This document shows positions 7,253-46,139 of a stretch of 64,000 nt of DNA, piece by piece. A program made the position numbers and the translations under genes. Location: IMG/VR virus record IMGVR_UViG_3300017971_000287. One strand, written 5' to 3'. Origin of the DNA: a virus. Each line of letters begins with the position of its first letter. Within the stretch, counting starts at the first letter, position 1. Under the pieces are notes generated by a model. It was not told the origin of the DNA. It saw only the letters and a list, made by a program, of their open reading frames with translations, and made no database searches.

Positions 7253-7256
7253 TCTC

Positions 7257-7835
7257 ATGGCTCAAAAGATTCTCACACAAAGAGCAGAGGACCGTCTCAA
7301 CGAGATGTGGGATTGGTTCCAGCAAGAAAAGTTAAAAAGAGCAACCCAATCACCCTTGCCGAACACTTTTCTTCCTCCAGAAGTGTATCTAGCGAAGCCT
7401 CAAGATTCAGGAGGTATTCCAGGCCTAGCTAACGATGATGAACCTGGAAGTGCTACTTGTGACATTTACAAGTTGGATGATAGTGATCCTCCTGCTTTAG
7501 TAGCTGTGACAGGTCTTGAAAGAACAGTCTACAACCTTTCACAATCTGACATTGGTCAAGATTGGATTGTGGTTGTGCGTACAAAGTTTGGCAAATGGTT
7601 TGCTTTGCTCTCTGGGTTTGATATCGCTTTCGGCAAACTAGATGGAGAGTTGGCAAGAGACAGTTCTGCTACTATGTCTGTTTGGGCAGGAAGCACTCTT
7701 GCTGATACGGGAGATAACATAACCGTAAATGACTGGCTTTTGAGTACTGGAGATTCTTTAGCCACAGCTACAAAATGTGTAGCAGTTAAGTACCACACTA
7801 AATGGTACGTCATCGCCGCAGAATGCCCTACCTAG
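7257..7835 (+). CDS. Putative tail protein
   Basis: ATG 7257 just after the upstream stop; ends WYVIAAECPT. Confidence 0.55.
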   Translation: MAQKILTQRAEDRLNEMWDWFQQEKLKRATQSPLPNTFLPPEVYLAKPQDSGGIPGLANDDEPGSATCDIYKLDDSDPPALVAVTGLERTVYNLSQSDIGQDWIVVVRTKFGKWFALLSGFDIAFGKLDGELARDSSATMSVWAGSTLADTGDNITVNDWLLSTGDSLATATKCVAVKYHTKWYVIAAECPT

Positions 7836-7836
7836 T

Positions 7837-8346
7837 ATGTTTAGACCTAAGTACACAAGACGATCCAGCAATCTTTGGCTGCCTGCCAAAACCGGAACAG
7901 GTCTATGGCGGTTTCTTCCAGTAGGGAATTGTTGTGTAAGTTGTGGGGGATGTATTGGGGATCATCCAAATCAAATTCAGGTGGACATTTCTGGTGTAGT
8001 AGATGATAATTGTGCTGACTGCGATACTGAGGTGAACGGCAGCTATGTTACAGACTTTCTTCAGGAAGTTGGTAACAGCTGTACGTGGCAATACACGTCA
8101 GACGACGCTCCTTGTGGAGCAACTTTGGTGACGGTCACAGTTTGGGTATGGGCCGGAGGAGAAGTCTGGGCGTGGTATTCACTGGCTGGAGGACTAGTAT
8201 CATACTATATCGCTTGGGAACTTCAAACCTTTGAAGATCGAGATTGTATGCATTTTTCCAATTTTGACGTGCCTTATGCTGAGCATGGTACACCAGGGCC
8301 TAAGTGTGACCCAACTAGTTCAACCTGTTCAATTACAACACTCTAA
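7837..8346 (+). CDS. Cys-rich putative tail-tip protein
   Basis: 169 aa with CCVSCGGC, CADC and further Cys; stop overlaps next ATG. Confidence 0.55.
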   Translation: MFRPKYTRRSSNLWLPAKTGTGLWRFLPVGNCCVSCGGCIGDHPNQIQVDISGVVDDNCADCDTEVNGSYVTDFLQEVGNSCTWQYTSDDAPCGATLVTVTVWVWAGGEVWAWYSLAGGLVSYYIAWELQTFEDRDCMHFSNFDVPYAEHGTPGPKCDPTSSTCSITTL

Positions 8347-8801
8347 TGGACTGCGACATAAAACGACAAGGAACGCAATGGCTCCCTTGCCCACGCTGCG
8401 GATGGGTCTATTCGGGAAAATCCACAAAACCCCCCAGAAGGACGTGTCCAAAAGTGCCAGGAACAATACTTCACACACTGTTATTGTCCCGCTTAGGAAC
8501 AGACGTGGTTTCTGGCTGTGCTTGTAGGGCGTGGATCAGTCAGATGAACCGTTGGGGGCCTGATAGATGCCGAGACAACCTTATAAAGATCGTTAATGCG
8601 TTACTTGCAGAAGCTAAGCGGCGAGAGTGGAAATTAGACGGAAAACCGATTCTTTCTAGAATAGCTAAGTATGGAACAACCTTGCCGGGCGGGATAATCT
8701 TTGCGCGTAGCTGGGCACGTAAGCTAGTATTGGAAGCGATCAAAAGGAGCGAACAAAGTGAAGAACCCGATTTGGGCGTATGGCCTGCTGACCGTTCCTG
8801 A
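8346..8801 (+). CDS. Cys-rich protein (CPRC zinc-ribbon-like N-terminus)
   Basis: CPRCGW..., PGTILHTLL..., CACRAWISQMNRWGPDRC; last gene before the glycan cluster. Confidence 0.55.
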   Translation: MDCDIKRQGTQWLPCPRCGWVYSGKSTKPPRRTCPKVPGTILHTLLLSRLGTDVVSGCACRAWISQMNRWGPDRCRDNLIKIVNALLAEAKRREWKLDGKPILSRIAKYGTTLPGGIIFARSWARKLVLEAIKRSEQSEEPDLGVWPADRS

Positions 8802-9459
8802 ACGGCGGTATGATCTTTTTCCAATAACTCTAAAAAGTCTAATAGAAGCTGGGTTTCACAACCCTACTCTTTTCGTGGATGGTGACTCTTCTTGCAGTGA
8901 ATACGAACTGTTTAGCCTGCCTGTAGTCACTCACAACCCTCCTATTCGTATTGTAGCAAACTGGATGACTGCTGCTTGGCAACTACTTGTTTGTAATCCA
9001 CAAGCAACTCACTTTGCGTTATTTCAAGATGATGTCTTGCTTTGTAAAGGGGTTCGCCAGTACATTGAGCAAGGAGAATACCCTAAGAAAGCTTACCTCA
9101 ACCTTTGTAACTACAAAGAGAATGAAGAGCTAGCAGACGGCAAAAAAGGTTGGTATCCTTCTAATCAGAAAGGAAGAGGGGCGCAAGCGTTGGTTTTTAG
9201 CCGGCATTCATTTGCAGGCTTGTTGGGTACTAACAGAATTGCTGAACGCGCTTTATGTGTTAAAAACGGGTGGCGGAACATTGATGGAGGTGTCTCTCTT
9301 TCTGCTAACGCATTAGGCTACACTGAATTAGTTCACATGCCTTCTTTAGCAGAGCACATTGGGACAAAAAGTACGATAGGTAACAGCTTTAATCGGTATC
9401 CTGGACCAGAGACTTTTCCAGGAACCGCTTACAACGTTTTTACAGGAGCGCACTCATGA
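8758..9459 (+). CDS. Glycosyltransferase-like protein (GT-A fold)
   Basis: TLFVDGD, ALFQDDVLL (DxD-like), GAQALVFS, PSLAEHIG motifs. Confidence 0.65.
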   Translation: MKNPIWAYGLLTVPERRYDLFPITLKSLIEAGFHNPTLFVDGDSSCSEYELFSLPVVTHNPPIRIVANWMTAAWQLLVCNPQATHFALFQDDVLLCKGVRQYIEQGEYPKKAYLNLCNYKENEELADGKKGWYPSNQKGRGAQALVFSRHSFAGLLGTNRIAERALCVKNGWRNIDGGVSLSANALGYTELVHMPSLAEHIGTKSTIGNSFNRYPGPETFPGTAYNVFTGAHS

Positions 9460-10127
9460 AACAGTATCCTCACACCCTAACTGCTGGGGAGATCAGAGAG
9501 TTTGTTAAGACAGTTTCCCCTCTTATTTTAGAGATTGGTTGCCATGAAGGAACAGACACGCTAGCTTTTCTAGAATCAATGCCCCAAGCAACCATCTTTT
9601 GTTTTGACTGCGAAAGCAGAGCTATTGCCCGTTGGTATAACAATTTACAAAAGCGACGTCAACTAAGCAGTAGTGTGTTCCTTGTGCCAAAAGCAGTTGC
9701 TGATGTTGATGGCTCACGAATGTTCCACGCTAGTACAGGGCGGGCAGGCTATCGAGAGGATTGGGACTTTTCCGGCAGCCTTTCTCAGCCTACCGGACAT
9801 TACCAACGTTCTCCTGAAATTAAATTCAAAGACCCAATCGACGTACCTTGTATTCGACTCGACACATGGTACGACACCCGGTATGGTGATACTTCTAATA
9901 CTGTAATTGACTTTGTTTGGGCAGATGTCCAAGGCAGTCAACTGTTTGTAATTGAAGGGGCCCAAGAGACATTCAAAAAGGTTCGATACCTTTACATTGA
10001 GTCTCATAGCACCCCTCTCTATGCAGATGAACCTACACAAGAAGAACTAATCAAAAAGTTAGCTCCTTGGTTTTGTCCTATTGGTATCTATGCCCGTGAA
10101 AACATTTTGTTTGAGCAACGATCATGA
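9456..10127 (+). CDS. FkbM-family SAM-dependent O-methyltransferase
   Basis: ILEIGCHEGTDT, CIRLDTW, IDFVWADVQGSQ, YLYIE motifs. Confidence 0.85.
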   Translation: MKQYPHTLTAGEIREFVKTVSPLILEIGCHEGTDTLAFLESMPQATIFCFDCESRAIARWYNNLQKRRQLSSSVFLVPKAVADVDGSRMFHASTGRAGYREDWDFSGSLSQPTGHYQRSPEIKFKDPIDVPCIRLDTWYDTRYGDTSNTVIDFVWADVQGSQLFVIEGAQETFKKVRYLYIESHSTPLYADEPTQEELIKKLAPWFCPIGIYARENILFEQRS

Positions 10128-11545
10128 ATACTTTTCAACGCACAGGAAAAGTGGACACTTCTATTTCTTTGAATAGAAAGGCTCACGTAGAAAGACCTCA
10201 ACAGCAGACCATAATTATTGCGGGCATTCCTAGGGGAGGTACGTCGATGGTTGCTGCCGTCATTGAAGCACTAGGAATTGACCTAGGTCCAAGAGAAGAC
10301 ATGGATGCTTTTAACTTTGAAGACCAGAAGATGCAGAGTGCTTACATTGAAGTACGTGCAGAACGGGTTAAACAACGGAATAAAGAGTGTGACGTTTGGG
10401 GATGGAAGGACCCAGTAGGAATCACAAGGGTACAAGACACTACACCCCTTCTAAGAAATCCTTATGTTATTCTTGTGTCTAGGGACCCCCTAGCAACGAT
10501 TCAAGGAGAGTTACGTTTTGACAAAGCCCATGCTAGCTTAGGACTGAGAACCCTAAAAGACATCACTGCACAAACCAGACGCTGGTGGAACTGCAACTTT
10601 GACTTCATTCAGGACACAAAGCTGCCTACTCTTCTTGTAAGCTACGAAAGAGCTATTAACAATCCACCAAGGTTTGTGAGTGAAGTTTGTGACTTTCTTA
10701 GCTTGGCTCCAACAGAGGAAGAAAAACAAAAAGCAATAGAGAGAATCTCTCCTGCTGGAGGGTACTTAACAACTATGTCTGAACCAGTAGTGAAAATTAA
10801 ATTAGAAGACATTGATTGGAGGTACATCAACCTTTCTCACCGTATTGACCGTCGTAAAAATATGAAAGTGCAAATGCGACGGTCAGGAATTTTAGTTAAA
10901 CAGTTTTCCGCCCTTCGCAAAGAGGACTACACTGGCTTGGAAGAAAAAGTTTCTCTAATGCGAGCAACCCCAAATACAATAGGTAACTGGCTTTCTCACA
11001 CTGCTCTAATAGCTGAAGCAAGAGACACAGGGAAAATCATCGGGGTGCTTGAAGATGACTGCTTACTCTGTATAGACATGCAACAACGCCTAAGATACGT
11101 TGAAGGACACTTTCTGAACAAACCTTGGGACATTTTCTTTTTGGGAGCAACGTTTCATACTACTCCAGGGGGCAAATGGCATCCCGAATTGGGCAGAGAC
11201 TTTGAGCTAACTGAGACACAACACATTGTAAAAGTCTATGGTGCCTTCTCAAATCAAGGCTACTTGGTCAACCCTCAAAGCGCAGACAAAATTCTCTTTC
11301 GTATGAATGAGATCATGCATAAGTCAACAGGAAGTGATCACGCTTTAATACAACTACAACCAGAATTGAATTGCTACTGTTTTGTTCCTGGGATGGTTTT
11401 TCAGATTGATGGACCTTCTGACATAGGAGAAGGAGTAACTAAGTTTAGCAACTTTTTCAACCTTGGTCCACACGTTTGGACAGAGAGACTTAGCGAATTT
11501 GATTGGGGTTCTTGGGAAACAAAGCAAAAGGAGACAGTCCAATGA
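10124..11545 (+). CDS. Fusion of sulfotransferase-like N-terminal domain and GT25-like glycosyltransferase
   Basis: N-term IIAGIPRGGTSMVA (PAPS 5'-PSB-like loop), WGWKDP, VSRDPLA, VSYE; C-term YINLSHRIDRR, GNWLSH, VLEDDC, DIFFLG typical of GT25. Confidence 0.75.
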   Translation: MNTFQRTGKVDTSISLNRKAHVERPQQQTIIIAGIPRGGTSMVAAVIEALGIDLGPREDMDAFNFEDQKMQSAYIEVRAERVKQRNKECDVWGWKDPVGITRVQDTTPLLRNPYVILVSRDPLATIQGELRFDKAHASLGLRTLKDITAQTRRWWNCNFDFIQDTKLPTLLVSYERAINNPPRFVSEVCDFLSLAPTEEEKQKAIERISPAGGYLTTMSEPVVKIKLEDIDWRYINLSHRIDRRKNMKVQMRRSGILVKQFSALRKEDYTGLEEKVSLMRATPNTIGNWLSHTALIAEARDTGKIIGVLEDDCLLCIDMQQRLRYVEGHFLNKPWDIFFLGATFHTTPGGKWHPELGRDFELTETQHIVKVYGAFSNQGYLVNPQSADKILFRMNEIMHKSTGSDHALIQLQPELNCYCFVPGMVFQIDGPSDIGEGVTKFSNFFNLGPHVWTERLSEFDWGSWETKQKETVQ

Positions 11546-12441
11546 ACGTTTTGGTTACTGGTGCTGCTGGGTTTATTGGAAACCATCTTTGTAGGTATTT
11601 ACAGAAGGAACACTACGTTGTTGGCGTCTACCATGATCGCTTCCCATCAACAGCTACTTTTCACGCAGTTCAGGCTGACGTTACAAACACAGACAGACTA
11701 CTGAGTTTACTTGTCAATTTGGAAATAGACTTTGTTTACCACTGTGCTGCTCGGTCTATTGTCCGGCACTGCTGCCAAGACCCTCTTGACTGCTTTTCTG
11801 TTAACATTATGGGTACTGCTGCTTTGCTGGAAGCTTGTCGCCGTTCAGAACAGATCAAAGGGGTTATGTGTATGGAGAGTGATAAATCATATGGACCAGG
11901 ACCTCTGCCCTACAAAGAAGACCAAGCGTTAAATCCGACAGGTATTTATGAGGCGTCAAAAGCCTGTGCTGGTCACATTGCTAGATGCTACTACAAAAAC
12001 TTTGGTGTACCTGTATTTACTGTTCGATCAGCAAACGTGTATGGTCCTAGTGATCCAAACAAAAGCCGACTCATCCCTAACACTATCAAAAGACTACGTG
12101 CAGGGCACCAGCCAGAGATCACAACTGGAGCAGATCGTTTTTCTAGAGAGTTCATCTATATAAAAGATTTCATTGCTGTTGTTGTTGGCCTAATGGAAGC
12201 AATTCCTTGGGGTAAAACAATCAACGTAGGCTCTGGAGAGATGGCTACAGTAACAGAGATTATTCAGTTAATCTGCTCAACTATGAAAAGAGAGTGTAGT
12301 CCAGTAAGCCTACCCGGACCAAAAACACTACAAGAAATAGAGCACCAACAGTTAGACACAACCCTCATGCATTCCTTGTTACCCTCTCTTCGTTCATTTT
12401 TTACTTTACCAGAAGGGATTAAAGCAACATGCTCAACCTGA
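11542..12441 (+). CDS. NAD-dependent NDP-sugar epimerase/dehydratase (CDP-glucose 4,6-dehydratase-like SDR)
   Basis: VLVTGAAGFIG, HCAA, ESDKSYG, YEASK (YxxxK), RSANVYGP; start at ATG 11542. Confidence 0.9.
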   Translation: MNVLVTGAAGFIGNHLCRYLQKEHYVVGVYHDRFPSTATFHAVQADVTNTDRLLSLLVNLEIDFVYHCAARSIVRHCCQDPLDCFSVNIMGTAALLEACRRSEQIKGVMCMESDKSYGPGPLPYKEDQALNPTGIYEASKACAGHIARCYYKNFGVPVFTVRSANVYGPSDPNKSRLIPNTIKRLRAGHQPEITTGADRFSREFIYIKDFIAVVVGLMEAIPWGKTINVGSGEMATVTEIIQLICSTMKRECSPVSLPGPKTLQEIEHQQLDTTLMHSLLPSLRSFFTLPEGIKATCST

Positions 12442-12983
12442 AAAACCGATCTACACTGATGGCTTCTCTTCCCAAAAACGGAGTAGGTGTTGAAGTAGGA
12501 GTGTCAGAAGGTTTGTTTTCTGAGACACTATTACAGGTTTGTACTCCTTCTGTCCTCTACCTAGTTGACCCCTGGTTGTTTCTACAAGGAAAGGAACATG
12601 AAGAGGATGCTGCTAACGTCTCTCAGCCGGAGCAGGAACAACGATACCAAGCAGTGTGTGGCAAGTTTGCTCTCCTTGCAAGGGTGCAGATCGTTCGTGA
12701 CTTCTCTGTGTCTTTTGCCGCCGCCACTCCTTTCCTTTTTCCTGATTGGGTATACCTTGACGGAGACCACACCCAAGTAGACCAAGACATTGCAGCATGG
12801 TGGCCAAAAATTAAACGAGGGGGGTGGCTTACCGGACATGACTACCTAACCTGCGGAGACCACTTGCGGGTAAAGCATCATGTTGATACGTTTGTTAAAA
12901 AGGAAAAGCTACCTTTGTTCGTAACAGAAGGAGACAGCTTGTACGAAAAGAACTATCCTAGTTGGGCGGTACAAAAACGATGA
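12429..12983 (+). CDS. Class I SAM methyltransferase (Methyltransf_24-like)
   Basis: VEVGVSEG, LVDPW, DWVYLDGDH, GGWLTGHDY. Confidence 0.85.
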   Translation: MLNLKNRSTLMASLPKNGVGVEVGVSEGLFSETLLQVCTPSVLYLVDPWLFLQGKEHEEDAANVSQPEQEQRYQAVCGKFALLARVQIVRDFSVSFAAATPFLFPDWVYLDGDHTQVDQDIAAWWPKIKRGGWLTGHDYLTCGDHLRVKHHVDTFVKKEKLPLFVTEGDSLYEKNYPSWAVQKR

Positions 12984-13513
12984 GACTAGACCTTACAAGC
13001 AGAACAACCCTTATGGCTACTTTGCCTTGCTACGGGGTTGCAGCAGAAGTTGGAGTGTTAGATGGGCAATTTTCTCAACAAATTCTTCAAAAAAACAGCC
13101 CACGACGTTTTTATCTAATTGACTGCTGGCAGTGTCCTCCTGGTTGGGACCCTTTGACTGTTGATAAGATCAACCAAGACTACTTAAAAAGTTACTACAC
13201 ACTCTTGGAACGGTATGCAAACAACCCCGCAGTACGTATTTTACGTGAATGGTCACTTGCTGCTGCTACTCTCTTTCCTAAAGACTACTTTGATTGGGTG
13301 TACATTGACGCAGACCATATTCAAGTGGCTCAAGATATCAATGCTTGGTTGCCTAAAGTTAAACAGGGTGGATACCTGTTAGGACATGACTACTGTGGAG
13401 ACAACCCTGTAGCAAAAGACGTAGACCAGTTTAGTAAAGTCAATAATCTACCTTACTTTCTTACTCAAGAACGGTTAGCTACTTGGGTGTTCCAAAAGCG
13501 TACAAAGGAGTGA
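12980..13513 (+). CDS. Class I SAM methyltransferase (Methyltransf_24-like), paralog of the upstream gene
   Basis: AEVGVLDG, LIDCW, DWVYIDADH, GGYLLGHDY; start ATG 12980. Confidence 0.85.
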   Translation: MRLDLTSRTTLMATLPCYGVAAEVGVLDGQFSQQILQKNSPRRFYLIDCWQCPPGWDPLTVDKINQDYLKSYYTLLERYANNPAVRILREWSLAAATLFPKDYFDWVYIDADHIQVAQDINAWLPKVKQGGYLLGHDYCGDNPVAKDVDQFSKVNNLPYFLTQERLATWVFQKRTKE

Positions 13514-13517
13514 CTTC

Positions 13518-14234
13518 ATGACAGAGCAAGAAAACATGACTGATGACGAACTGAATTCTCTGTTTTTGTCTGCTGGCTCTGCTGACGAGTATAGATTGAA
13601 AAAATTGTCGTTTGTTCCTGACGTTATTTATGACATAGGTGCGGATGTGGGCAGTATTACAATGTTTGCTGCTGCCAATTTTCCACTTACCAAAATTGTA
13701 GCAGTAGAACCCAATCCTTGGAGCTTCAAAAGACTTGTCACTAATGCACAACAGTTGGGGTACTCTAACGTTTTTCCTGTTCAAAAGGCATTAGGACAAG
13801 GAGAAATGTTTGAGCCGCAACCGACAACACCCCCGCTACACTGGATGGTAGTAAATCGAGACCACCCTTGTTGGCACGAAAACTTACAACCTAGTAAAAT
13901 TCAAAGTGTTTCTCTTGCTGAACTCTACAATGTTCATAGGGGCAAAAAGTACGTAGTCAAGATGGACTGCGAAAGCGCAGAACTGTTTGCTATCACCGAG
14001 AAGAAAAGCAAGCAAGTGATTTTGAACTCTGGATACTTCGCAGCAGAACTTCATGTCTGGGCTCAATGCGGTAGTTGTGTTCCCCACGTTGCAGAAACCC
14101 TTTACCGTTTTATTTTTGAACTAGCGCAATCCCATACTGTTTGGACTAAGTGTTATGGGGCTTGTATCCACGTGTGGGCAAAGAATCGAAAGTTCACCTC
14201 TGGGGAAGCTACTACCAACGATACAACCAACTAA
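13518..14234 (+). CDS. FkbM-family methyltransferase
   Basis: IYDIGADVG, VAVEPNP, VKMDCESAE. Confidence 0.8.
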   Translation: MTEQENMTDDELNSLFLSAGSADEYRLKKLSFVPDVIYDIGADVGSITMFAAANFPLTKIVAVEPNPWSFKRLVTNAQQLGYSNVFPVQKALGQGEMFEPQPTTPPLHWMVVNRDHPCWHENLQPSKIQSVSLAELYNVHRGKKYVVKMDCESAELFAITEKKSKQVILNSGYFAAELHVWAQCGSCVPHVAETLYRFIFELAQSHTVWTKCYGACIHVWAKNRKFTSGEATTNDTTN

Positions 14235-14255
14235 CTCAACAAGCGATAGTGTTTT

Positions 14256-15017
14256 ATGCTCAGCCAGCAAGAGTACACAGAAACGTACAAACGGGAATTT
14301 GAACTCTGTTTCAATGAGGTTTGTGGCAAAGACTATTACCGATTAAAGTCTTGTCCTATTATCCCTGACGTTGTTTTGGATGTAGGTGCCAACGTTGGAA
14401 GCTTTACTACCTTTGCACGGTGCTTGTTTCCTCTGGCTCAGATCGTAGCAATTGAACCTGACCCTGTTACTTTTGCAGGATTAAAATCATTTGTAGAGCA
14501 CCTACCCCGTGTTAAGTGCTTTCAATTAGCATTAGCTACTGGGCCTGTATGGCAAGGTCTTTCAGAAGACACAGCAGAGTCTTATTACAGCGCAACAAAC
14601 AGCTACGTTACCCAAGACCAAATTGGTTTTCCTGTAGAGCAAATGGCTTCTCCTCCCGGACAGGCGGGTAGAGACGCACTGCCTATCTACAATCAATGTC
14701 CGCATATTTCCCCAATCAGTTTAGACGCTTTGGTTGAAAAGTGGGTCTGTCCAACCGACAGACTGTTACTGAAATTGGATTGTGAAGGGGGAGAAAATTG
14801 CATAATCACTCACAAGCCTTCATTACAGGCTTTGCGAAGGGTTGATGTGCTTACAATGGAAACGCACTACTACACAAAAGGAACCGGAACAGAACACGAA
14901 ACAAACAAAGTATTGATTGAACATGGGCTAGTAGATGCTCTAAAAGAAACTCATCAATGTGTTTTAGAAGAAGAGCAAAGGTACTTTGGCGCCATCAAAA
15001 AGGAGCTAGTCTTTTGA
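14256..15017 (+). CDS. FkbM-family methyltransferase
   Basis: VLDVGANVG, VAIEPDP, LKLDCEGGE. Confidence 0.85.
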   Translation: MLSQQEYTETYKREFELCFNEVCGKDYYRLKSCPIIPDVVLDVGANVGSFTTFARCLFPLAQIVAIEPDPVTFAGLKSFVEHLPRVKCFQLALATGPVWQGLSEDTAESYYSATNSYVTQDQIGFPVEQMASPPGQAGRDALPIYNQCPHISPISLDALVEKWVCPTDRLLLKLDCEGGENCIITHKPSLQALRRVDVLTMETHYYTKGTGTEHETNKVLIEHGLVDALKETHQCVLEEEQRYFGAIKKELVF

Positions 15018-15898
15018 ACCAGGTTATCTGCTTTGTTGCTGACCAAAACTATTTTGACCACGCCAAATATGTTCTTGTCAACTGCAAAAGACAAGGAGGT
15101 TGGAAAGGGGATTTTTGTATCATCACTCCAGGAGGAGGCGCATCAGACTTTCAACATCGTGGAATCCATGTCTATGAAGTAAAAGGTTCTTGGGACTTTA
15201 TGGTCAAGTTTCATGCTTTTACTCCGTTCTTTCACCGTTGGGATGAGTGTCTTCTTCTAGACTTAGACATTGTAGTCCAAGGACCCCTACAAAAAGTCTT
15301 TGATGGACTGCGGTCACGATTACCAAAACTACTAGCAAACCAAGAGGATGGAGACACTCTAAGTGCTCTCAAACATTGGGATGAAAAAAGGGAAGAACAC
15401 ACAGACGCTTACCTTCGTGTCCAAGAATTGTACCCTCATGTTACGAACAAAATGTTCAATATGGCTATCCTCTTCTTTCGTCCTAAAAGCTTACCTCCAG
15501 ACACTCAAGAAAGATTACGCCAGTTGCATGAAGAATTCAAAGAGATCAATCCTACTTGTGCTGATCAGATGTTGGTCAACCTACTATTGTATGATCAACT
15601 AGAGGAAGCTGGAAAAGACTACTGGACTTTCATGGGCAACGATTGGCCTTGTAATCGTGTAAAGAGTGTAGGCAGAGGATGGAGAGGAGATGAGGAGCCT
15701 GTAATCCTACATTACACGCGGTGGATGGCTCCTTGGATTGTAAAGTACCCTCCAGAGGGAGACGCCTTGAAAGGGTTACTAGCCTTGGGGTTGCCTCCCG
15801 AAACTGGAGGATACCGTAATCACCGATTAAACGTTGTGTGTCACGAATTCTACGCTGAATGCGTAAAGGCATTTAATGAGGAGTTCCCAATAGTATGA
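15014..15898 (+). CDS. GT8-like glycosyltransferase (paralog 1)
   Basis: TTG start after AGGAG; FVADQNY, LLLDLDIVV (DxD), FNMAILF, ADQMLVN, LHY. Confidence 0.75.
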   Translation: MNQVICFVADQNYFDHAKYVLVNCKRQGGWKGDFCIITPGGGASDFQHRGIHVYEVKGSWDFMVKFHAFTPFFHRWDECLLLDLDIVVQGPLQKVFDGLRSRLPKLLANQEDGDTLSALKHWDEKREEHTDAYLRVQELYPHVTNKMFNMAILFFRPKSLPPDTQERLRQLHEEFKEINPTCADQMLVNLLLYDQLEEAGKDYWTFMGNDWPCNRVKSVGRGWRGDEEPVILHYTRWMAPWIVKYPPEGDALKGLLALGLPPETGGYRNHRLNVVCHEFYAECVKAFNEEFPIV

Positions 15899-16728
15899 AA
15901 CCACATGCACTAGTTTTGGTTGCTGATGGTGCTTACTTAGATCATGCTCGAAGTTTGTTTGTGAACTGTGCAAAACAAGGCAATTGGCAAGGAGACTTTG
16001 TTTTGATTTGTCCAGGCGGTTGTAACACTTTCTCAATAGAGAATCGGGGTATTACAATTTTACGTGCTCCAGAGAAGAGTTGGACTAACCGTATCAAATT
16101 TCGCATCTTTGATGATTGGTTACGAGTATGGCAGTTTGTTTTGTACCTAGACTGCGATGCTCTAGTGCAAAAAAACTTGAACACAATCTTATCAGTACTA
16201 TATGACCAGCCTGACAAAATTTTCTTTGATGGGTCGCAAAAGACGACCATCATGGACGACTGGCTACACTTTTGTAAAAAGGAAGGGGTTGACCCTCAAG
16301 AACAAAAAGACACTTTTTTGAGACTAGAACAGCAATACTCTTCTATTATTCACAAACGTATCTTCGTTAGTAGTGCTGTCCTCTTTTCTCCGCAAAGGGT
16401 TCCAAAAGGCACAGTAGTCTGCATGAACGACATTCAAGATCGTTTTTGTAAAATCAATCCAGGAGAGTACGATCAACAGGTAATGAACCTTGCTTTGTAC
16501 GACAGACTCGCCCCCTTACCTAAATGGTGTGTTACTTGGTTTGCTTTTGATGAGGCTGACAACCCTTCTGTTGTGTCGCACTATTGGGGTATGTACGCCC
16601 CTTGGATAGAGAAAATAGAAGGGGCTGGAGGGTACTACAACAATCCTTTAGGCAAAACTTGTTACCAAGCATACGTACAACATCGAAACGCTTTCGCCTC
16701 TGTTTTTCCTAAGAAAGAAAACACTTAA
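15895..16728 (+). CDS. GT8-like glycosyltransferase (paralog 2)
   Basis: VADGAY, LYLDCDALV, YDQQVMN, SHYWG.YAPWI. Confidence 0.75.
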   Translation: MKPHALVLVADGAYLDHARSLFVNCAKQGNWQGDFVLICPGGCNTFSIENRGITILRAPEKSWTNRIKFRIFDDWLRVWQFVLYLDCDALVQKNLNTILSVLYDQPDKIFFDGSQKTTIMDDWLHFCKKEGVDPQEQKDTFLRLEQQYSSIIHKRIFVSSAVLFSPQRVPKGTVVCMNDIQDRFCKINPGEYDQQVMNLALYDRLAPLPKWCVTWFAFDEADNPSVVSHYWGMYAPWIEKIEGAGGYYNNPLGKTCYQAYVQHRNAFASVFPKKENT

Positions 16729-16729
16729 C

Positions 16730-17635
16730 ATGAGCCGTACAGTTGTTGTTTTTGTAACAGATGAAGCTTACCTACCCCACTACAAGTCACTTGCTGTAAA
16801 CTGTCATAACCAGGGACAGTATCGTGGCGACTATCTATGGGTGTGTTCACACCTGCCTTCCAAAGAGATAGATGATTTAGAGTCAAGAGGGTTTCACACT
16901 TTAGAAGTGGAAGAGCAAGGTTTCCTTGCCAAATTTCGCATCTTTGATGAACAACTCAATCGTTGGGAGCAAGCTTTCTATCTTGACGCTGACGTGCTTG
17001 TGCAACAACCCTTCCAGCCTCTGTTTGATCAACTTACAGCGTGGCCTCGCGAAAAACTCTCTGCTCGATTTGGCTGTAAGATTCGCAAGCGGATTCTTTC
17101 TAGCCGTGAAGAAGTCCCTGTGTTTATGGGTTGGCAAATTTGGGACGAAGAATGGAAAGAGCATACAGCCATCTATGAAAGAATGGCAGAACAGTTTCCG
17201 CACGTTCTTTCTGCGGATAAAATGTGGTCTACTGCCCTGTTGTTATGGGAACCACAAAGTATTCCTGCTACCACCGTACAAAGACTGAACGAACTACAGC
17301 AAGAGTACCATGTCTGTAACAACCCAGAAAAAGGAGGAACTGACGAACAGATTATTGACTTACTTATGCATGAAGACATGGCACAAGTAGGAGAAAAGGC
17401 CTGGTGCTTTTGGGGCTTAGATGAGGAGAATGCAAGAGTGCCTTCAATTGCTAGAGGGTGGCGTGGAGGAGAAATACCTGTTGCTCTGCACTATGGTCGG
17501 TGGTACGCTCCTTGGATTGAAAAAACGCCTGACATGGATGCATACTCTCTGCCCCGACTAGACAAAGTGTGTCACGAATTTTACGCAGAAAACTTGGCTG
17601 CATTCGGTACTGTTTTTCCTAAAAGGAGTAACTGA
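16730..17635 (+). CDS. GT8-like glycosyltransferase (paralog 3)
   Basis: VTDEAY, FYLDADVLV, TDEQIID, LHYGRWYAPWI. Confidence 0.75.
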   Translation: MSRTVVVFVTDEAYLPHYKSLAVNCHNQGQYRGDYLWVCSHLPSKEIDDLESRGFHTLEVEEQGFLAKFRIFDEQLNRWEQAFYLDADVLVQQPFQPLFDQLTAWPREKLSARFGCKIRKRILSSREEVPVFMGWQIWDEEWKEHTAIYERMAEQFPHVLSADKMWSTALLLWEPQSIPATTVQRLNELQQEYHVCNNPEKGGTDEQIIDLLMHEDMAQVGEKAWCFWGLDEENARVPSIARGWRGGEIPVALHYGRWYAPWIEKTPDMDAYSLPRLDKVCHEFYAENLAAFGTVFPKRSN

Positions 17636-18306
17636 TGGCTACACTAGTTGAATTGGGTGTCAAAAACAAGACGGACAAAGTAGGTCACAACTATCTGAAC
17701 CATTATGAAGAACGATTCAAACCGATTAGAGAGGAACGGTTCACCCTGTTGGAACTAGGAATTATGCGTGGCAGTTCTCTGCGCATGTGGCGTGACTTTT
17801 TTCCTCTTGCAAACATAGTTGGTGTTGATATTACAAAGGAAAGCATGCTAAAAGGAGAAGAAAGGATCCAATGTTACCAGGGAGACCAAGGTAACAAAAG
17901 CTTTTTGGAAGAAGTAGCAAAAGTAGAAGGACCATTAACTCTTGTTATAGACGACGGGAGTCACAGAGGGTGGCACCATGTTGAATCCTTCAAAGCCTTA
18001 TGGCCCTTTGTTAACCCCGGTGGATGGTACTGTATTGAAGACGCTTTCTCCATCTTTCATAAAAGCTGGACTGATCCAGGGCATTTTACAATACTGCACC
18101 TCATTGAGGAAGAGTGGGCAGCGATCATTCGTAGTCAGAGCACGATTGCTCAAGTAGCTGTAATAGGTTGTGACACCTGCAAACCTCTTGCAGGAAGAAA
18201 CAACGGGCTGATCTTTTTACAAAAGGCAATTGTAGCAAAAGAGGATATGCCTCTGCCTAAAAATGAAGAAAGTAACTTTTTTACCAGTAAGGACAGGAGG
18301 TACTAG
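17635..18306 (+). CDS. Class I SAM sugar O-methyltransferase (MycE/TylE-like C-terminal domain)
   Basis: TDKVGHNY..HY, LELGIMRGSSL, VGVDI, QGDQ, VIDDGSH, GGWYCIED. Confidence 0.8.
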   Translation: MATLVELGVKNKTDKVGHNYLNHYEERFKPIREERFTLLELGIMRGSSLRMWRDFFPLANIVGVDITKESMLKGEERIQCYQGDQGNKSFLEEVAKVEGPLTLVIDDGSHRGWHHVESFKALWPFVNPGGWYCIEDAFSIFHKSWTDPGHFTILHLIEEEWAAIIRSQSTIAQVAVIGCDTCKPLAGRNNGLIFLQKAIVAKEDMPLPKNEESNFFTSKDRRY

Positions 18307-18307
18307 C

Positions 18308-19108
18308 ATGCTGACTTTAGCAATAACCGCATTCGATGAAATGGAAGAACGTCGCGGTTGCGGAAATAGACTGTTACAATGTATTAGCTACGCTCAGAAG
18401 CACCCGTCAATACGTGAAATTGTTATTGTAGACGATGGCTCAGAACGCTATTCCGAATTGTTAGCACTTTTATCCAAAGAACCCAAGAAACTTTGGATAG
18501 GTAGCAACGTTCAAAACCTGGGTGTTTTTGTAAACAAAATTGAAGCCGTTGCCCGCAGTACAAGTGCTTGGGTTATCACTTGTGATTCAGATAACTGCAT
18601 GGATGCAGGATACATTGACAAGGTCCTATCTCTTTGGCGTACAGAAAAAAGTTGGTATTGTCCTAGCTTTGCCAAGCCTAAATTTGATTACAGAGAGCTA
18701 ATTGGAAGCTACAACGGAAAGACTCTCAAAAGAATCATCAGACATCCTTCCTTTCCTTGTTTCTTTAACACAGGCAATCAGGTTGTCCACCAAAAGACAT
18801 TTATGAAAGTGTTTGGAAAATACCGTGGACAACGGGCTGACTTACTGTTACCTAACTGGTTGGGTATCCAAGAGAAGAAACGGAAAAGCCATTATTGGCG
18901 TATGGTGTTTGATGCTTGTGACTCTTTTTTATTGAACTATTTGTGGGTTCAAGCAGGGGGGTCTATTGGTATAGTGGAAGGACTAGAGTACCTTCACCAC
19001 TATGCAACAGGAGACGACGGCAATTATGCTAGGTCCCCCAAAGAAAAAGCAGAACTAGGGGAAATATTGCTAACCCAATTACGTCACCTTATAGAGGCCC
19101 TACAATGA
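18308..19108 (+). CDS. GT2-family glycosyltransferase
   Basis: EIVIVDDGS, NLGVFVNK, ITCDSDN; start ATG 18308. Confidence 0.8.
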   Translation: MLTLAITAFDEMEERRGCGNRLLQCISYAQKHPSIREIVIVDDGSERYSELLALLSKEPKKLWIGSNVQNLGVFVNKIEAVARSTSAWVITCDSDNCMDAGYIDKVLSLWRTEKSWYCPSFAKPKFDYRELIGSYNGKTLKRIIRHPSFPCFFNTGNQVVHQKTFMKVFGKYRGQRADLLLPNWLGIQEKKRKSHYWRMVFDACDSFLLNYLWVQAGGSIGIVEGLEYLHHYATGDDGNYARSPKEKAELGEILLTQLRHLIEALQ

Positions 19109-20013
19109 ACCGTGTCACAATGAGCCAATTCGGTAGGTGGGGACGGGCAGGAAATCAGTTCTTTCAGTACGCATTTCTAACGGAGTATGCACAACAGTAT
19201 GGCGCACAGTTAGAATTACCCGCTTGGGTAGGCACTCATCTGTTTGGTGCTTCCAATCCTTCTATTACAACGAAGCTGCCTGTATGGACAGAGCCAGGCA
19301 GCGGTCTTCAGCATCCTACTCCCCCAGAAGGTGACGAACTGGTTGGTAAAGACTTTCGAGGGTACGCCCAATACCACACAAGCTACTACAAGACACACCA
19401 AGACCAGATACGTTTGTTGTTTGCCCCTGTTCCAAAAGTAGCTGCAAGACTGCGCCCAGCAGAAGAACAATTACAGCAAGCGGGAGAAACAATAATTGGA
19501 ATCCATCTTCGCAGAGGAGACTATGGTAGAGGCATCTTTCCTATCATACCTACCGAATGGTATTTGAACTGGCTCTACAAAAATTGGAGCCGTTTCAAAA
19601 GGCCCGTCCTGTTCATTGCAACAGAGGCACTGTCACTAGTAGAAAAGTTCAGGGAGTTCAATCCTCAGACGGTAGAGACTCTTGGTATTGCTCTTGAAAA
19701 CAAACCGATGGCAGATTGTACGTATCTTTCTTACGATCTCAAAACGAAAGACAGTAGGGCTATGGACTGGTATCCTGACTTTCACTTGCTTTCTCTCTGT
19801 GACATCTTGCTAGGCCCTAGCAGTACGTTTAGCTTCTTTGCGGCTATGTTGAATCCAAGCCTCCAAGAATACTGGCGTGCTTCTCTTGCTATCGCCTATT
19901 GGCAAAGGACAGACCCGTGGGATGCGTACCCTCTAATGCGGGAGCACGTAAATGACTACCCGCACCTATCGTCGGTTAGGTCGTCTCACCGGCAAAATCC
20001 GTATTGGAGATAG
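19105..20013 (+). CDS. GT11-family (alpha-1,2-fucosyltransferase-like) glycosyltransferase
   Basis: GRAGNQFFQYAF, GIHLRRGDY (HxRRGD), FIATE, DFHLLSLCD, STFSFFAAML. Confidence 0.85.
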   Translation: MNRVTMSQFGRWGRAGNQFFQYAFLTEYAQQYGAQLELPAWVGTHLFGASNPSITTKLPVWTEPGSGLQHPTPPEGDELVGKDFRGYAQYHTSYYKTHQDQIRLLFAPVPKVAARLRPAEEQLQQAGETIIGIHLRRGDYGRGIFPIIPTEWYLNWLYKNWSRFKRPVLFIATEALSLVEKFREFNPQTVETLGIALENKPMADCTYLSYDLKTKDSRAMDWYPDFHLLSLCDILLGPSSTFSFFAAMLNPSLQEYWRASLAIAYWQRTDPWDAYPLMREHVNDYPHLSSVRSSHRQNPYWR

Positions 20014-20084
20014 GGGGTTCCTACCCCCTGGAAGGGTAGGATTTCGCTCCTTCCTGCCCGGAAAGGGGGTAGGTCCCTTTTTAC

Positions 20085-20122
20085 CACGCCGTCTAAGGCC
20101 CCTAGCACGCCGTCTAAGGCCC
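20085..20122. repeat. 17-bp direct repeat CACGCCGTCTAAGGCCC x2
   Basis: Copies at 20085-20101 and 20106-20122 in the convergent intergenic region. Confidence 0.85.
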
Positions 20123-20245
20123 TCCGGCGGTCGTTCGGTATCTCCGTATCCTTTTTGTGGCTATCTCGCCCTCTACGCCCCTCTACGCTCTAATTCGGAT
20201 TTTAGAAGTTAGGTAGCTTAGGTAGTCTAGATACCGTAAGCGCAC

Positions 20246-40529: not shown

Positions 40530-40562
40530 CTCTTTGCAGTTAATGTGTTAAGAGGCTAAGAC

Positions 40563-44027: not shown

Positions 44028-44028
44028 A

Positions 44029-46081: not shown

Positions 46082-46088
46082 GTGTAGA

Positions 46089-46122
46089 AAAAGCCTCCAG
46101 CGGTTTTTCGCAAGAGGCTTTT
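46089..46122. terminator. Probable bidirectional terminator between convergent genes
   Basis: AAAAGCCTC / GAGGCTTTT stem with A/T runs on both sides. Confidence 0.6.
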
Positions 46123-46139
46123 AGAAGAGAAGCACACGA

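What the first reader, a model, noticed from the sequence alone, without database searches (positions are those of the whole stretch)
8758..20013. 14-gene, 11-kb glycan assembly line at the end of the virion operon
Seen: contiguous, mostly overlapping or closely spaced genes for 7 GT domains (GT-A-like, GT25, 3x GT8-like, GT2, GT11), 6 SAM methyltransferases (3 FkbM, 2 Methyltransf_24-like, 1 MycE-like), a sulfotransferase domain and an NDP-sugar dehydratase. No flippase, polymerase or TM segments were recognised. Established: some mycobacteriophages glycosylate capsid/tail with a few GTs encoded among structural genes; serotype-converting phages use membrane GtrABC. Inference: a cytoplasmic pathway building a heavily O-methylated, possibly fucosylated and sulfated glycan on virion proteins, much more elaborate than the phage examples I know.
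Basis: partly seen in the sequence, partly recalled or inferred. Interest (0 to 1): 0.85.

Follow-up and report, generated by a model that had tools for sequence, protein, structure and literature searches.

The report
Phage tail-linked glycan-building gene cassette
An uncultured marine phage ends its particle-building operon with 14 (really 15) tightly packed genes for soluble sugar-adding, sugar-methylating and sulfating enzymes, led by a previously undescribed glycosyltransferase that is a core tail-module gene in many related phages, which most likely decorates the virus particle with a complex glycan, although the target is not yet proven.

Summary
Positions 8758-20013 hold 14 co-directional, mostly overlapping genes. 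They encode 7 glycosyltransferase (GT) domains, 6 SAM methyltransferases, one sulfotransferase domain and one NDP-sugar SDR enzyme. None has a transmembrane segment, and a terminator-like hairpin follows the last stop.

New findings:
- Gene 1 has no Pfam or PHROG match. It is a GT-A-fold enzyme with an invariant QDD motif and founds a large unannotated family (2,345 clusters at 50% identity).
- In most family members this GT is fused to a ~150-aa Cys-containing helical domain. Here that domain is the separate upstream ORF 8346-8801, so the unit starts at 8346.
- In at least 11 related or unrelated phage contigs this GT sits directly after the tail-tip or fibre genes. It is followed by a glycan cassette that differs in every phage, from no genes to about 15.
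- One relative (L014) carries collinear orthologues of all 14 genes.
- The phage has a separate DNA-glycosylation module elsewhere.

Best reading (about 0.5): a cytoplasmic, late-expressed pathway that glycosylates virion proteins, possibly tail proteins. The acceptor is not shown, and remodelling of host surface glycan remains a serious rival. Nothing similar was found elsewhere in this scan.

The parts
8346..8801 (+). Cys-containing helical 'N-domain' protein (151 aa), the split-off partner of the priming GT. It overlaps g1 by 44 nt in another frame.
   Evidence: phmmer matches (E 2.5e-11 to 1e-6) to the N-terminal extensions of fused g1-family proteins, with the motif GPGTxLK..C.C..MN.WGP..C. 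88 of the top 150 family members carry an N-extension. The AF2 model is helical (pLDDT 75) with no fold match.
8758..9459 (+). g1: GT-A-fold glycosyltransferase of a new, unannotated family; proposed priming enzyme.
   Evidence: No Pfam, PHROG or NCBIfam hit. GT-A fold. Invariant QDD, D41, H193 and H200. 2,345 clusters in the HMM search. Always sits after tail genes.
9456..10127 (+). g2: FkbM-family SAM methyltransferase.
   Evidence: PF05050 1e-11; TIGR01444 47.7 bits against a cut-off of 37.7.
10124..11545 (+). g3: fusion of a PAPS sulfotransferase (N-terminal) and a GT25 glycosyltransferase (C-terminal).
   Evidence: PF13469/PF00685 3e-6 and PF01755 1e-5. The fusion is conserved at 51-56% identity in P0160-P0162. 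The two halves are separate genes in L017, and the sulfotransferase half is absent in L001. The 5'-PSB motif is conserved.
11539..12441 (+). g4: extended-SDR NDP-sugar enzyme, probably a 4,6-dehydratase. The ORF opens at TTG 11503.
   Evidence: PF01370 1e-46. All NCBIfam equivalogs score far below their cut-offs. Best PDB hit is the UDP-GlcA 4-epimerase 6zl6 at 1e-27. MESDKSYG...YEASK dyad.
12429..12983 (+). g5: Methyltransf_24 class I SAM methyltransferase.
   Evidence: PF13578 5e-11; 42% identical to g6.
12980..13513 (+). g6: Methyltransf_24 paralogue. The ORF opens at TTG 12962.
   Evidence: PF13578 2e-12; paralogue of g5.
13518..14234 (+). g7: FkbM-family methyltransferase.
   Evidence: TIGR01444 58.7 bits against a cut-off of 37.7; 29% identical to g8.
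14256..15017 (+). g8: FkbM-family methyltransferase.
   Evidence: PF05050 5e-5, 23.9 bits against a cut-off of 22.7.
15014..15898 (+). g9: GT8-like glycosyltransferase. The ORF opens at ATG 14957; the likely start is TTG 15014, behind an AAGGAG Shine-Dalgarno sequence.
   Evidence: PF01501 6e-7. DxD and HY..APW motifs. Start inferred from the orthologue alignment and the sequence.
15895..16728 (+). g10: GT8-like paralogue.
   Evidence: 30% identical to g9; motifs kept; weak PF01501 hit.
16730..17635 (+). g11: GT8-like paralogue.
   Evidence: 37% identical to g9; motifs kept. 41 homologues, all on contigs of 68.7 kb or less.
17635..18306 (+). g12: MycE/TylE-type deoxysugar O-methyltransferase.
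   Evidence: PDB 3ssm (MycE) 6e-26; 8ia9 (demethylmacrocin O-MT) 5e-13.
18308..19108 (+). g13: GT2 glycosyltransferase. The ORF opens at ATG 18263; the orthologue alignment starts at M16.
   Evidence: PF00535 1e-10; alignment to L014.
19105..20013 (+). g14: GT11-family (alpha-1,2-fucosyltransferase-like) glycosyltransferase.
   Evidence: Atlas 0.97 by features; TM 0.86 to an alpha-1,2-FucT cluster. N-terminal GNQFFQY motif. Weak PF01531 hit.
20020..20083 (+). Two GC-rich hairpins, the second followed by a T-run: the likely terminator of the late operon.
   Evidence: Best-ranked + strand terminator-like site, 20053-20073; sequence read directly. The next genes are on the minus strand.
7146..8346 (+). 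Context: tail-tip proteins with a conserved N-terminal part and a variable C-terminal part or partner (receptor-binding-protein-like). These are candidate acceptors.
   Evidence: Only residues ~35-160 of the 7146 protein are conserved in relatives, where it is replaced by 448-532-aa proteins.

Best explanation
This is a late-expressed, entirely cytoplasmic glycan assembly line that modifies phage particle proteins before or during assembly.

Proposed mechanism:
- The conserved two-part enzyme (helical Cys-containing N-domain 8346-8801 plus GT-A g1 8758-9459) puts the first sugar on a phage structural protein. The acceptor is most plausibly a tail or tail-tip protein, given the gene's invariable position. 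Capsid is also possible.
- The lineage-specific set of soluble GTs (GT25, three GT8-like, GT2, GT11) extends the chain using host nucleotide sugars. The g4 SDR enzyme probably adds a 6-deoxyhexose precursor.
- Six SAM methyltransferases O-methylate the sugars; one of them is a MycE-type deoxysugar O-methyltransferase.
- The PAPS sulfotransferase domain adds sulfate.

Shown: the enzyme families, their solubility, operon structure, synteny, conservation, and the variability of the cassette between relatives.

Inferred: the acceptor, the order of steps, the sugars, and the biological role. The role could be surface masking, host recognition, or protection of the particle.
For: 1. The cassette lies inside the late structural transcription unit. 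It is co-directional with the TMP (3129-5468) and tail-tip genes, shows 1-13-nt overlaps typical of translational coupling, and ends at a terminator-like hairpin. The neighbouring genes are convergent minus-strand early genes.

2. g1 is a core gene of the lineage. In L001/L002, L003, L004, L005, L006, L010, L011/L012, L013, L014 and L017 it follows the same conserved tail-tip genes. It diverges like them: 38-52% identity against 30-62% for the tail genes.

3. In a different phage type (L016), a fused N-domain + g1 + GT2 + TOD1 protein is again the gene directly after the tail-fibre genes.

4. In L005, g1 is present with no other glycan gene. Its substrate therefore does not depend on the rest of the cassette.

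5. The g1 family looks phage-restricted. Among 185,579 species' genomes there was one hit, on a 65-kb phage-like contig in a MAG.

6. All enzymes are soluble. No polyprenyl-phosphate GT, flippase, polymerase, ligase or ABC transporter exists in the 64 kb.

7. Downstream cassette content differs in every relative, which fits diversifying selection on an exposed structure.

8. DNA glycosylation has its own module: 5-hmdU DNA kinase, two TAGT GTs, two radical-SAM/SPASM enzymes and a ThyA-like enzyme at 39.6-48.4 kb.

9. Precedents exist. Corndog carries an O-methyltransferase plus three GTs inside the structural operon, which modify capsid and tail tube (PMC4351075, PMC11600133). PBCV-1 uses soluble GTs plus methyltransferases to build a methylated capsid glycan (PMC9614988).
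Against: - No acceptor is identified. Nothing in the sequence proves that any virion protein is glycosylated.
- The end of the late operon next to tail fibres is also the classic slot for conversion genes ('morons') that act on the host surface.
- Similar GT/epimerase sets in large cyanomyoviruses have been read as host cell-wall modification (PMC12801897).
- Cytoplasmic GTs could act on host undecaprenyl-linked intermediates and rely on host export.
- The predicted complex of g1 with the N-domain protein gave no verdict.
- The enzymes share no BLAST-level similarity with those of mycobacteriophages or any cultured phage.
- The S/T-rich insertion at the capsid C-terminus and the conserved ...VAGT C-terminus of the putative tail tube protein are only suggestive.
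Confidence: 0.5

Rival explanations
1. Remodelling of host envelope glycan. The soluble GTs, MTs and sulfotransferase act at the inner face of the membrane on host lipid-linked O-antigen, EPS or capsule intermediates, and the host machinery exports the product. The altered cell surface would mask receptors, so that progeny are not trapped on debris or neighbouring infected cells, or would block superinfection.
For: - GT25, GT8, GT2 and GT11 are typical LPS/EPS families. JGI names GT25 homologues 'involved in LPS biosynthesis'.
- The cassette occupies the moron-like slot beside the variable receptor-binding genes.
- Cyanomyovirus GT/epimerase clusters are interpreted this way (PMC12801897).
- The phage also carries a PEP-CTERM-like surface protein. 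This points to an EPS-producing host, possibly Verrucomicrobiota.
Against: - No initiating phosphoglycosyl transferase, flippase, polymerase, ligase or transporter, and no membrane anchor on any enzyme.
- Expression from the late operon leaves little time before lysis.
- No integrase was recognised among the window ORFs that were scanned.
- g1 is a vertically inherited core gene tied to tail genes, not a sporadic moron. It occurs alone in L005.
- The closest homologues of the enzymes lie on phage-sized contigs, not bacterial chromosomes.
Confidence: 0.25
2. The cassette makes a non-virion product. This could be a free or lipid-linked polymethylated, sulfated oligosaccharide, or glycosylation of a non-structural phage or host protein (for example to disarm a host defence or sensor). 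The tail-gene linkage would then be a matter of operon economy.
For: - All enzymes are soluble and no acceptor is defined.
- MycE/FkbM-type methyltransferases are best known from small-molecule pathways.
- The N-domain has no recognisable fold that would tie it to a virion protein.
Against: - g1 is positioned after the tail-fibre genes in every locus examined, across at least three phage architectures.
- No scaffold-synthesising genes (PKS, NRPS or lipid) are present.
- Devoting 17% of a ~68.7-kb genome to such a product would lack precedent in phages.
Confidence: 0.12
3. DNA hypermodification: the cassette builds or extends a glycan on modified bases of the phage DNA.
For: - Phage GTs that hypermodify DNA with diverse glycans are known (bioRxiv 10.1101/2023.12.21.572611).
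- This phage clearly modifies thymidine.
Against: - A dedicated DNA module with DNA-specific families (HMUDK, TAGT, radical SAM) lies 20 kb away in the replication region.
- The cassette enzymes belong to glycan, not DNA, GT families.
- The cassette sits in the late operon and is linked to tail genes in relatives.
Confidence: 0.03
4. Artefact or decay: an assembly chimera or a degenerating island captured from a host.
For: GC content is slightly lower in the cassette than in the structural genes (43.8% against 46.4%).
Against: - The identical DNA was recovered from two independent metagenome studies.
- All 14 ORFs are intact, with catalytic motifs kept.
- Orthologues are collinear in L014, and a reduced set is present in L001, L004 and L017.
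- Codon-usage correlation with the rest of the genome (0.85-0.87) is about as high as between the structural and replication genes (0.88).
Confidence: 0.02

Closest known systems
Mycobacteriophage virion O-glycosylation operons (Corndog/cluster O: O-methyltransferase + 3 GTs; Che8/cluster F: 2 GTs)
   Same: Phage-encoded soluble GTs, plus a methyltransferase in cluster O, are embedded in the virion structural operon. They are not themselves virion components, and they modify capsid and tail tube subunits (PMC4351075, PMC11600133, PMC12619734 citing Freeman et al. 2023).
   Different: - Size: 2-4 enzymes there, against 15 genes and 15 catalytic domains here.
- No detectable sequence similarity.
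- Position: after the tail-fibre genes here, rather than between portal and protease.
- Sulfotransferase, NDP-sugar SDR and six methyltransferases are present here.
- Host: a marine Gram-negative-type host is likely here, instead of Actinobacteria.
- Glycosylation is experimentally shown there and not shown here.
Chlorovirus PBCV-1 capsid glycosylation machinery (A064R GT-GT-MT, A061L MT, A111/114R, A075L)
   Same: - Virus-encoded, predicted cytoplasmic, soluble GTs and SAM methyltransferases build a methylated, deoxysugar- and fucose-containing glycan on a structural protein without ER/Golgi or lipid carriers (PMC9614988).
- Multi-domain GT-MT fusions occur there. They also occur in relatives of g1, such as P0036 and P0105 with g1-MT24-GT1.
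   Different: - Eukaryotic giant virus.
- Genes are scattered and expressed early.
- N-linked glycans.
- No sulfotransferase.
- No homology was tested beyond the shared fold class.
GT/epimerase clusters of large cyanomyoviruses (S-SCSM2R, S-SCSM1, P-SSM2)
   Same: Many GTs of the same CAZy-type families (GT2, GT11, GT25) plus NDP-sugar epimerases are clustered in a marine phage (PMC12801897). The only cultured-phage hit for g14 is a Synechococcus myovirus GT next to an epimerase.
   Different: - Genomes of 190 kb (SynMITS9220M01) to over 200 kb (S-SCSM1, P-SSM2) there, against about 68.7 kb here.
- Not tied to tail genes.
- No g1-type enzyme found there.
- Function there is also untested and is interpreted as host cell-wall modification.
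Serotype-converting phage systems (GtrABC, Oac)
   Same: Phage genes near the tail genes that change a glycan.
   Different: Gtr proteins are integral membrane proteins acting on bactoprenol-linked glucose in the periplasm, in temperate phages. Here there are no TM segments, and no integrase was recognised among the window ORFs that were scanned.
Bacterial cytoplasmic protein O-glycosylation islands (e.g. flagellin glycosylation islands)
   Same: From my own knowledge, not tested here: soluble GTs with sugar-modifying and methylating enzymes glycosylate a structural polymer subunit in the cytoplasm before assembly, and island content is variable.
   Different: No Maf/Fgt-type enzymes were identified here. 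The acceptor would be a phage protein.

Membership tests
Phage-encoded virion glycosylation system (mycobacteriophage type) | Phage-encoded soluble GTs located within the virion structural gene block | tested here: met
   Seven GT domains, none with a TM segment, lie between the tail-tip genes and the operon terminator.
Phage-encoded virion glycosylation system (mycobacteriophage type) | Glycans covalently attached to capsid or tail tube subunits (mass spectrometry, glycostain) | not testable with these tools
   This is an uncultured phage and no proteomic data exist. The only hints are an S/T-rich capsid C-terminus and a conserved ...VAGT tail-tube-like C-terminus.
Phage-encoded virion glycosylation system (mycobacteriophage type) | Sequence homology of the GTs to Che8/Corndog enzymes | tested here: not met
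   tblastn of g1, a g1 relative and g11 against 50,697 phage records gave no match. g14 gave one weak cyanophage hit.
GtrABC-type serotype conversion | GtrA flippase, membrane-bound GtrB and a multi-TM GtrC | tested here: not met
   No protein with more than 3 hydrophobic segments in the window, and none in the cassette.
Wzx/Wzy- or ABC-transporter-dependent polysaccharide gene cluster | Initiating polyprenyl-phosphate GT, flippase/polymerase or ABC transporter, and chain-length or ligase functions | tested here: not met
   No such Pfam families appear among the 14 genes, and there are no multi-TM proteins in 64 kb. Host-supplied functions cannot be excluded.
Phage DNA hypermodification GT modules (TAGT / aGPT-Pplase / T4 a/b-GT) | DNA-specific GT family next to base hydroxymethylase or kinase genes in the replication region | tested here: not met
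   Those families (HMUDK_hel, 2x TAGT, radical SAM/SPASM, ThyA-like) lie at 39.6-48.4 kb, not in the cassette.
GT-A fold glycosyltransferases (for g1) | Rossmann-like alpha/beta/alpha fold with a DxD metal/nucleotide-sugar motif and a C-terminal His | tested here: met
   AF2 model with pLDDT 82 and pTM 0.81. More than 500 Foldseek PDB hits at E<=1e-3; all of the 50 listed are GT-A-fold enzymes (glycosyltransferases plus a few nucleotidyltransferases). Invariant Q90-D91-D92, H193 and H200.
GT11 alpha-1,2-fucosyltransferases (for g14) | Family profile match and fold; fucosyl transfer activity | tested here: inconclusive
   Pfam scores 20.8 bits against a cut-off of 23.9. The Atlas feature score is 0.97 and TM is 0.86 to an alpha-1,2-FucT cluster. 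Donor specificity is not testable.
NDP-hexose 4,6-dehydratases (for g4) | Extended SDR with a YxxxK plus an acid/base pair (D-E, or D-K as in CDP-glucose 4,6-dehydratase) | tested here: inconclusive
   S-D-K and YEASK are present. The best NCBIfam hit is dTDP-glucose 4,6-dehydratase, at 125 bits against a cut-off of 365. The best PDB hit is a UDP-GlcA 4-epimerase. The D-K dyad rule is recalled from memory.
MycE/TylE sugar O-methyltransferases (for g12) | Sequence similarity over the catalytic domain to MycE | tested here: met
   3ssm at 6e-26 over residues 6-142; 8ia9 at 5e-13. g12 lacks MycE's N-terminal auxiliary domain (223 aa against 419 aa).

The most novel reading that the evidence does not exclude
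The g1-type enzyme is a new GT-A family, usually fused to a Cys-containing helical domain. In this reading it is the dedicated priming glycosyltransferase of a widespread, so far unrecognised virion (probably tail or tail-fibre) glycosylation system in uncultured marine and sediment phages.

The family has thousands of sequence clusters. It appears in several unrelated phage architectures, and a similar enzyme toolkit appears in a crAss-like contig. The genes behind g1 would form a hypervariable 'glycan cassette' that gives each phage lineage its own methylated, sulfated, deoxysugar-containing coat.

Particle glycosylation would then be common in environmental phages rather than a peculiarity of mycobacteriophages. 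It could act in host recognition or in evading host surface or lectin-based defences.
Probability: 0.35. Interest if true: 0.85.

Novelty: new variant of a known kind. Interest (0 to 1): 0.7.

Why it matters
By the sources read here, phage-encoded glycosylation of phage particles has been demonstrated only in mycobacteriophages, and there with two to four enzymes.

This phage has a genome of about 68.7 kb (the longest contig on record). It spends 11.7 kb, about 17% of the genome, on 15 genes that look like a complete soluble glycan assembly, methylation and sulfation line.

The lead enzyme defines a large family with no Pfam, PHROG or NCBIfam match. In every context examined, that family is welded to phage tail genes.

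If the target is the virion, this would give:
- a genomic marker (the g1 family) for finding glycosylated phages in metagenomes;
- a natural library of soluble GT/MT combinations that make rare methylated or sulfated sugars;
- a new variable layer in phage-host recognition in the ocean.

If the target is the host envelope instead, it is still an unusually large late-expressed surface-remodelling system.

Tried and rejected
- Near-identity DNA searches of the cassette and of the head module against 50,697 phage records: no match.
- The window's own genome is not held.
- The search for related loci with the 5473 tail protein alone: no confirmed relative.
- tblastn of g1, of a TARA relative of g1, and of g11 against cultured phages: no match.
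- PHROG and Pfam on the six ORFs between the TMP and g1: no hits.
- Fold search of the N-domain model in PDB and in the ESM Atlas: no credible match; best E 3.8, TM <0.5.
- Atlas search of the 437-aa N-terminal part of P0032: nothing usable.
- Complex prediction of g1 with the N-domain protein: score 0.22, below the mark of 0.32. This is no verdict and is not used as evidence either way.
- phmmer against PDB for g5, g9 and g14: uninformative.
- Freeman et al. 2023 (PMC10527164) is not held, so its content is cited only through papers that quote it.
- Earlier scan findings by sequence: none.
- Rejected readings: assembly chimera or decaying host island (conservation, codon usage); GtrABC-like conversion (no TM proteins); DNA modification (a separate dedicated module exists).
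- dN/dS was not attempted. The closest full orthologue set is about 55% identical at protein level, so synonymous sites are saturated.

Full report
**What the window is**

The 64-kb window is most of the genome of an uncultured siphovirus-like phage.
- The + strand carries large terminase (52084), portal (53620), a MuF-like head protein (55528), a protease/scaffold-like protein (57642) and the major capsid protein (59386) at its right end.
- At its left end it carries tail completion (1002-1454) and a tape measure protein (3129-5468).
- Cultured phages show no near DNA match. The capsid protein is only 29% identical to its best cultured relative.
- The identical DNA occurs in a sediment metagenome and a seawater metagenome from two studies. 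The longest contig on record is 68,684 bp.
- No tRNA gene was found. No integrase was recognised among the window ORFs that were scanned.

Positions 8758-20013 contain 14 co-directional ORFs.
- FkbM methyltransferases: g2, g7, g8.
- Methyltransf_24 enzymes: g5, g6.
- A MycE-type sugar O-methyltransferase: g12, PDB 3ssm at 6e-26.
- A sulfotransferase-GT25 fusion: g3.
- An extended-SDR NDP-sugar enzyme: g4.
- Three GT8-like paralogues that all keep the DxD and HY..APW motifs: g9-g11.
- A GT2: g13.
- A GT11: g14.
- g1 has no profile hit in Pfam, PHROGs or NCBIfam. It folds with good confidence (pLDDT 82) into a GT-A glycosyltransferase with an invariant QDD motif.

Further features of the block:
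- None of the 14 proteins has a transmembrane-like segment. Nowhere in the 64 kb is there a protein with more than three hydrophobic segments.
- After refining four starts (g4 ATG 11539, g6 ATG 12980, g9 TTG 15014 behind AAGGAG, g13 ATG 18308), genes overlap by 1-13 nt or are 1-21 nt apart.
- Two GC-rich hairpins follow the last stop codon, the second with a T-run. Convergent minus-strand genes (an HTH protein, a UvrD-like helicase) come next.

**The unit starts one gene earlier**

An HMM of the g1 family found 2,345 cluster representatives at 50% identity, 989 of them below 1e-30.
- Of the best 150, 88 carry an N-terminal extension of 80 aa or more. Twenty-four carry C-terminal fusions to other enzymes such as Methyltransf_24 + GT1, GT2 or a TOD1-like GT.
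- The ORF just upstream of g1 (8346-8801, 151 aa, overlapping g1 by 44 nt in another frame) is homologous to that N-terminal extension. phmmer E-values run from 2.5e-11 to 1e-6, with the shared motif GPGTxLK...C.C...MN.WGP..C.
- The same split is seen in L001, L006 and L014. It is therefore a stable two-gene form of a normally two-domain enzyme.
- The domain is predicted to be helical and matches no known fold.
- A complex prediction for the two proteins gave no verdict.

**Comparative genomics is the main new evidence**

In every locus examined, the g1-type GT sits directly behind the tail-tip or fibre genes. The conserved tail-tip genes are homologues of 5473, 6373 and 6827, and of the N-terminal part of 7146, whose C-terminal part or partner varies like a receptor-binding protein. 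What follows g1 differs each time:

| Locus | Source | What follows g1 |
|---|---|---|
| L014 | NCBI MAG contig | Collinear orthologues of all 14 genes at 38-71% identity, plus one extra methyltransferase-like gene. Tail genes are 30-62% identical (45-62% for the four conserved tail-tip genes). |
| L001/L002 | IMG/VR, 64.8 kb | A 10-gene version with one GT8, one MT24, a radical-SAM enzyme and an O-MT-like gene, but no sulfotransferase |
| L017 | ENA metagenome scaffold, 41.3 kb | Sulfotransferase and GT25 as separate genes, a second sulfotransferase, then the terminase genes |
| L004 | Logan assembly contig, 50.3 kb | Two SDRs, a UDP-sugar dehydrogenase, FkbM, two GT2s and a GT11-like gene |
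| L003 | Logan assembly contig, 70.7 kb | A different, opposite-strand set: DegT aminotransferase, acetyltransferase, three GT1s, a dehydrogenase |
| L011/L012 | TARA Oceans | A g1-MT24-GT1 fusion plus an SDR and a GT1 |
| L010 | Logan assembly contig, 12.2 kb | MT24 and an SDR |
| L005 | JGI metagenome contig, 14.1 kb | No further glycan gene in the ~3 kb that follows (an IS1595 transposase and a DNA methylase) |
| L016 | A phage with a different tail module | A four-domain protein (N-domain + g1 + GT2 + TOD1-like) is the last tail-module gene, before thyX |

Other comparative points:
- A crAss-like contig (L018) has a similar toolkit (GT25, GT2, GT11, MT24, GT8, FkbM, SDR) about 9 kb from a crAss muzzle-protein gene, with Cpn60/Cpn10 and other genes between.
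- A pattern scan of one genome per 185,579 prokaryote species found a single g1 relative. It lies on a 65-kb contig binned with an Opitutaceae MAG, and that contig carries the same tail genes.
- Homologues of g11 all lie on contigs of 68.7 kb or less. The full-length g3 fusion homologues all lie on contigs of 17 kb or less.
- Codon usage of the cassette correlates with the structural and replication genes (r 0.85-0.87) about as well as those two sets correlate with each other (0.88).

Together these results exclude a chimera or a decaying host island. They show a vertically inherited core enzyme with a rapidly diversifying downstream cassette.

**What it most likely does**

The pathway is cytoplasmic, because all enzymes are soluble. 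It is late, because it lies in the structural operon. It lacks everything needed to start, flip, polymerise or export a lipid-linked polysaccharide.

The phage also has a separate, typical DNA hypermodification module: a 5-hmdU DNA kinase, two TAGT glycosyltransferases, two radical-SAM/SPASM enzymes, an NT5C-like nucleotidase and a ThyA-like enzyme at 39.6-48.4 kb. DNA is therefore an unlikely target of the late cassette.

The best-supported model has four steps:
1. The N-domain + g1 enzyme primes a phage structural protein. By gene position this is most plausibly a tail or tail-tip protein.
2. The six other GT domains extend the glycan.
3. g4 probably supplies a 4-keto-6-deoxyhexose. The S-D-K/YxxxK motif supports this, but subfamily assignment is unresolved.
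4. The six methyltransferases and the sulfotransferase decorate it.

Two caveats apply to step 4:
- The MycE-type enzyme and the GT11 fit O-methylated deoxyhexose or fucose, but no sugar identity is shown.
- The sulfotransferase's weak best PDB matches are tyrosylprotein sulfotransferases (E 0.006). Sulfation of protein rather than sugar cannot be excluded.

Weak hints about acceptors:
- The capsid C-terminus has an S/T-rich insertion relative to its G001 orthologue.
- The putative tail tube protein ends in a conserved ...VAGT in four phages.

**Comparison with known systems**

The closest known system is mycobacteriophage virion glycosylation.
[quoted passage not shown] These are expressed in infected cells but absent from particles (PMC4351075).
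- They are reported to modify capsid and tail tube (PMC11600133; PMC12619734 quoting Freeman et al. 2023).

Mechanistically the cassette also resembles PBCV-1. There, soluble virus-encoded GTs plus the methyltransferase domain of A064R and the methyltransferase A061L build a methylated capsid glycan (PMC9614988).

It differs from these systems in several ways:
- scale: 15 genes, about 17% of the genome;
- enzyme families and the lack of sequence similarity;
- the presence of a sulfotransferase;
- the tail-linked core GT of a new family;
- its ecological setting.

Large cyanomyoviruses carry up to 13 GTs of overlapping families. Their role is also untested and is usually read as host-surface modification (PMC12801897). 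That is why host envelope remodelling is kept as a substantial rival.

**Verdict**

| Question | Verdict |
|---|---|
| Observation | Confirmed, and extended to 8346 |
| Virion-protein glycosylation | About 0.5 |
| Host glycan remodelling | About 0.25 |
| Other non-virion product | About 0.12 |
| DNA modification | About 0.03 |
| Artefact or decay | About 0.02 |
| Novelty | New variant of a known kind |

A credible stronger reading is that a widespread, unrecognised phage glycosylation system is marked by a new GT-A family. Interest is 0.7.

Noticed in passing
window 8346-9459: The ORF pair 8346-8801 / 8758-9459 is the split form of a two-domain protein that is fused in most relatives. The two ORFs overlap by 44 nt in different frames, and the split is conserved in L001, L006 and L014. 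Whether a frameshift product is also made was not examined.
   Followed up: partly
window 39606-48389: A separate DNA hypermodification module: 5-hmdU DNA kinase (PF18723, 3e-51), two TAGT glycosyltransferases, two radical-SAM/SPASM enzymes, an NT5C-like nucleotidase and a ThyA-like enzyme.
   Followed up: partly
window 22859-23449 (-) and locus L013: A PEP-CTERM-like C-terminus (PF07589, 20.3 bits, just under the 20.7 cut-off). In addition, the only genome-collection relative of g1 lies on a 65-kb phage-like contig binned with an Opitutaceae (Verrucomicrobiota) MAG. Together these are a lead to the host phylum, not evidence.
   Followed up: no
window 59386-60594 and 1919-2401: The capsid protein ends in an S/T-rich tail (GTSTSSRVSGIVHGTTS) with an 8-residue insertion relative to the G001 orthologue. 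The putative tail tube protein ends in ...VAGT, conserved in L001, L003 and (as GTGT) L005. These are possible glycosylation sites by analogy with mycobacteriophages. Untested.
   Followed up: partly
window 62167-64000 and 1-1084; G001 contig ends (L008, L009): The region between the head-tail adaptor genes and the tail completion gene has no homology between this phage and its relative G001. Both contigs break inside it, which suggests a variable or repeat-rich region or the genome ends.
   Followed up: partly
L001 11625-12746 and 14957-15778: The reduced cassette of the relative contains a radical-SAM enzyme (PF04055, 6e-23) and an O-methyltransferase-like gene. Both are absent from the window's cassette.
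   Followed up: no
L018 (NCBI GCA_040384205.1 contig, 68.7 kb): A crAss-like contig (crAss_MUZ_C domain) carries a comparable GT25/GT2/GT11/MT24/GT8/FkbM/SDR cassette beside phage-encoded Cpn60/Cpn10. The same enzyme toolkit therefore circulates among unrelated phage lineages.
   Followed up: no
window 19952-20212 (+): An 86-aa ORF overlaps the end of g14 and runs through the terminator hairpins. It has no family hit and is probably not a gene.
   Followed up: partly
window 25829-27076 (-), 24976-25812 (-): The early minus-strand operon encodes an AAA_5 (MoxR/dynein-like) ATPase next to a DUF7192 protein. Function unknown.
   Followed up: no
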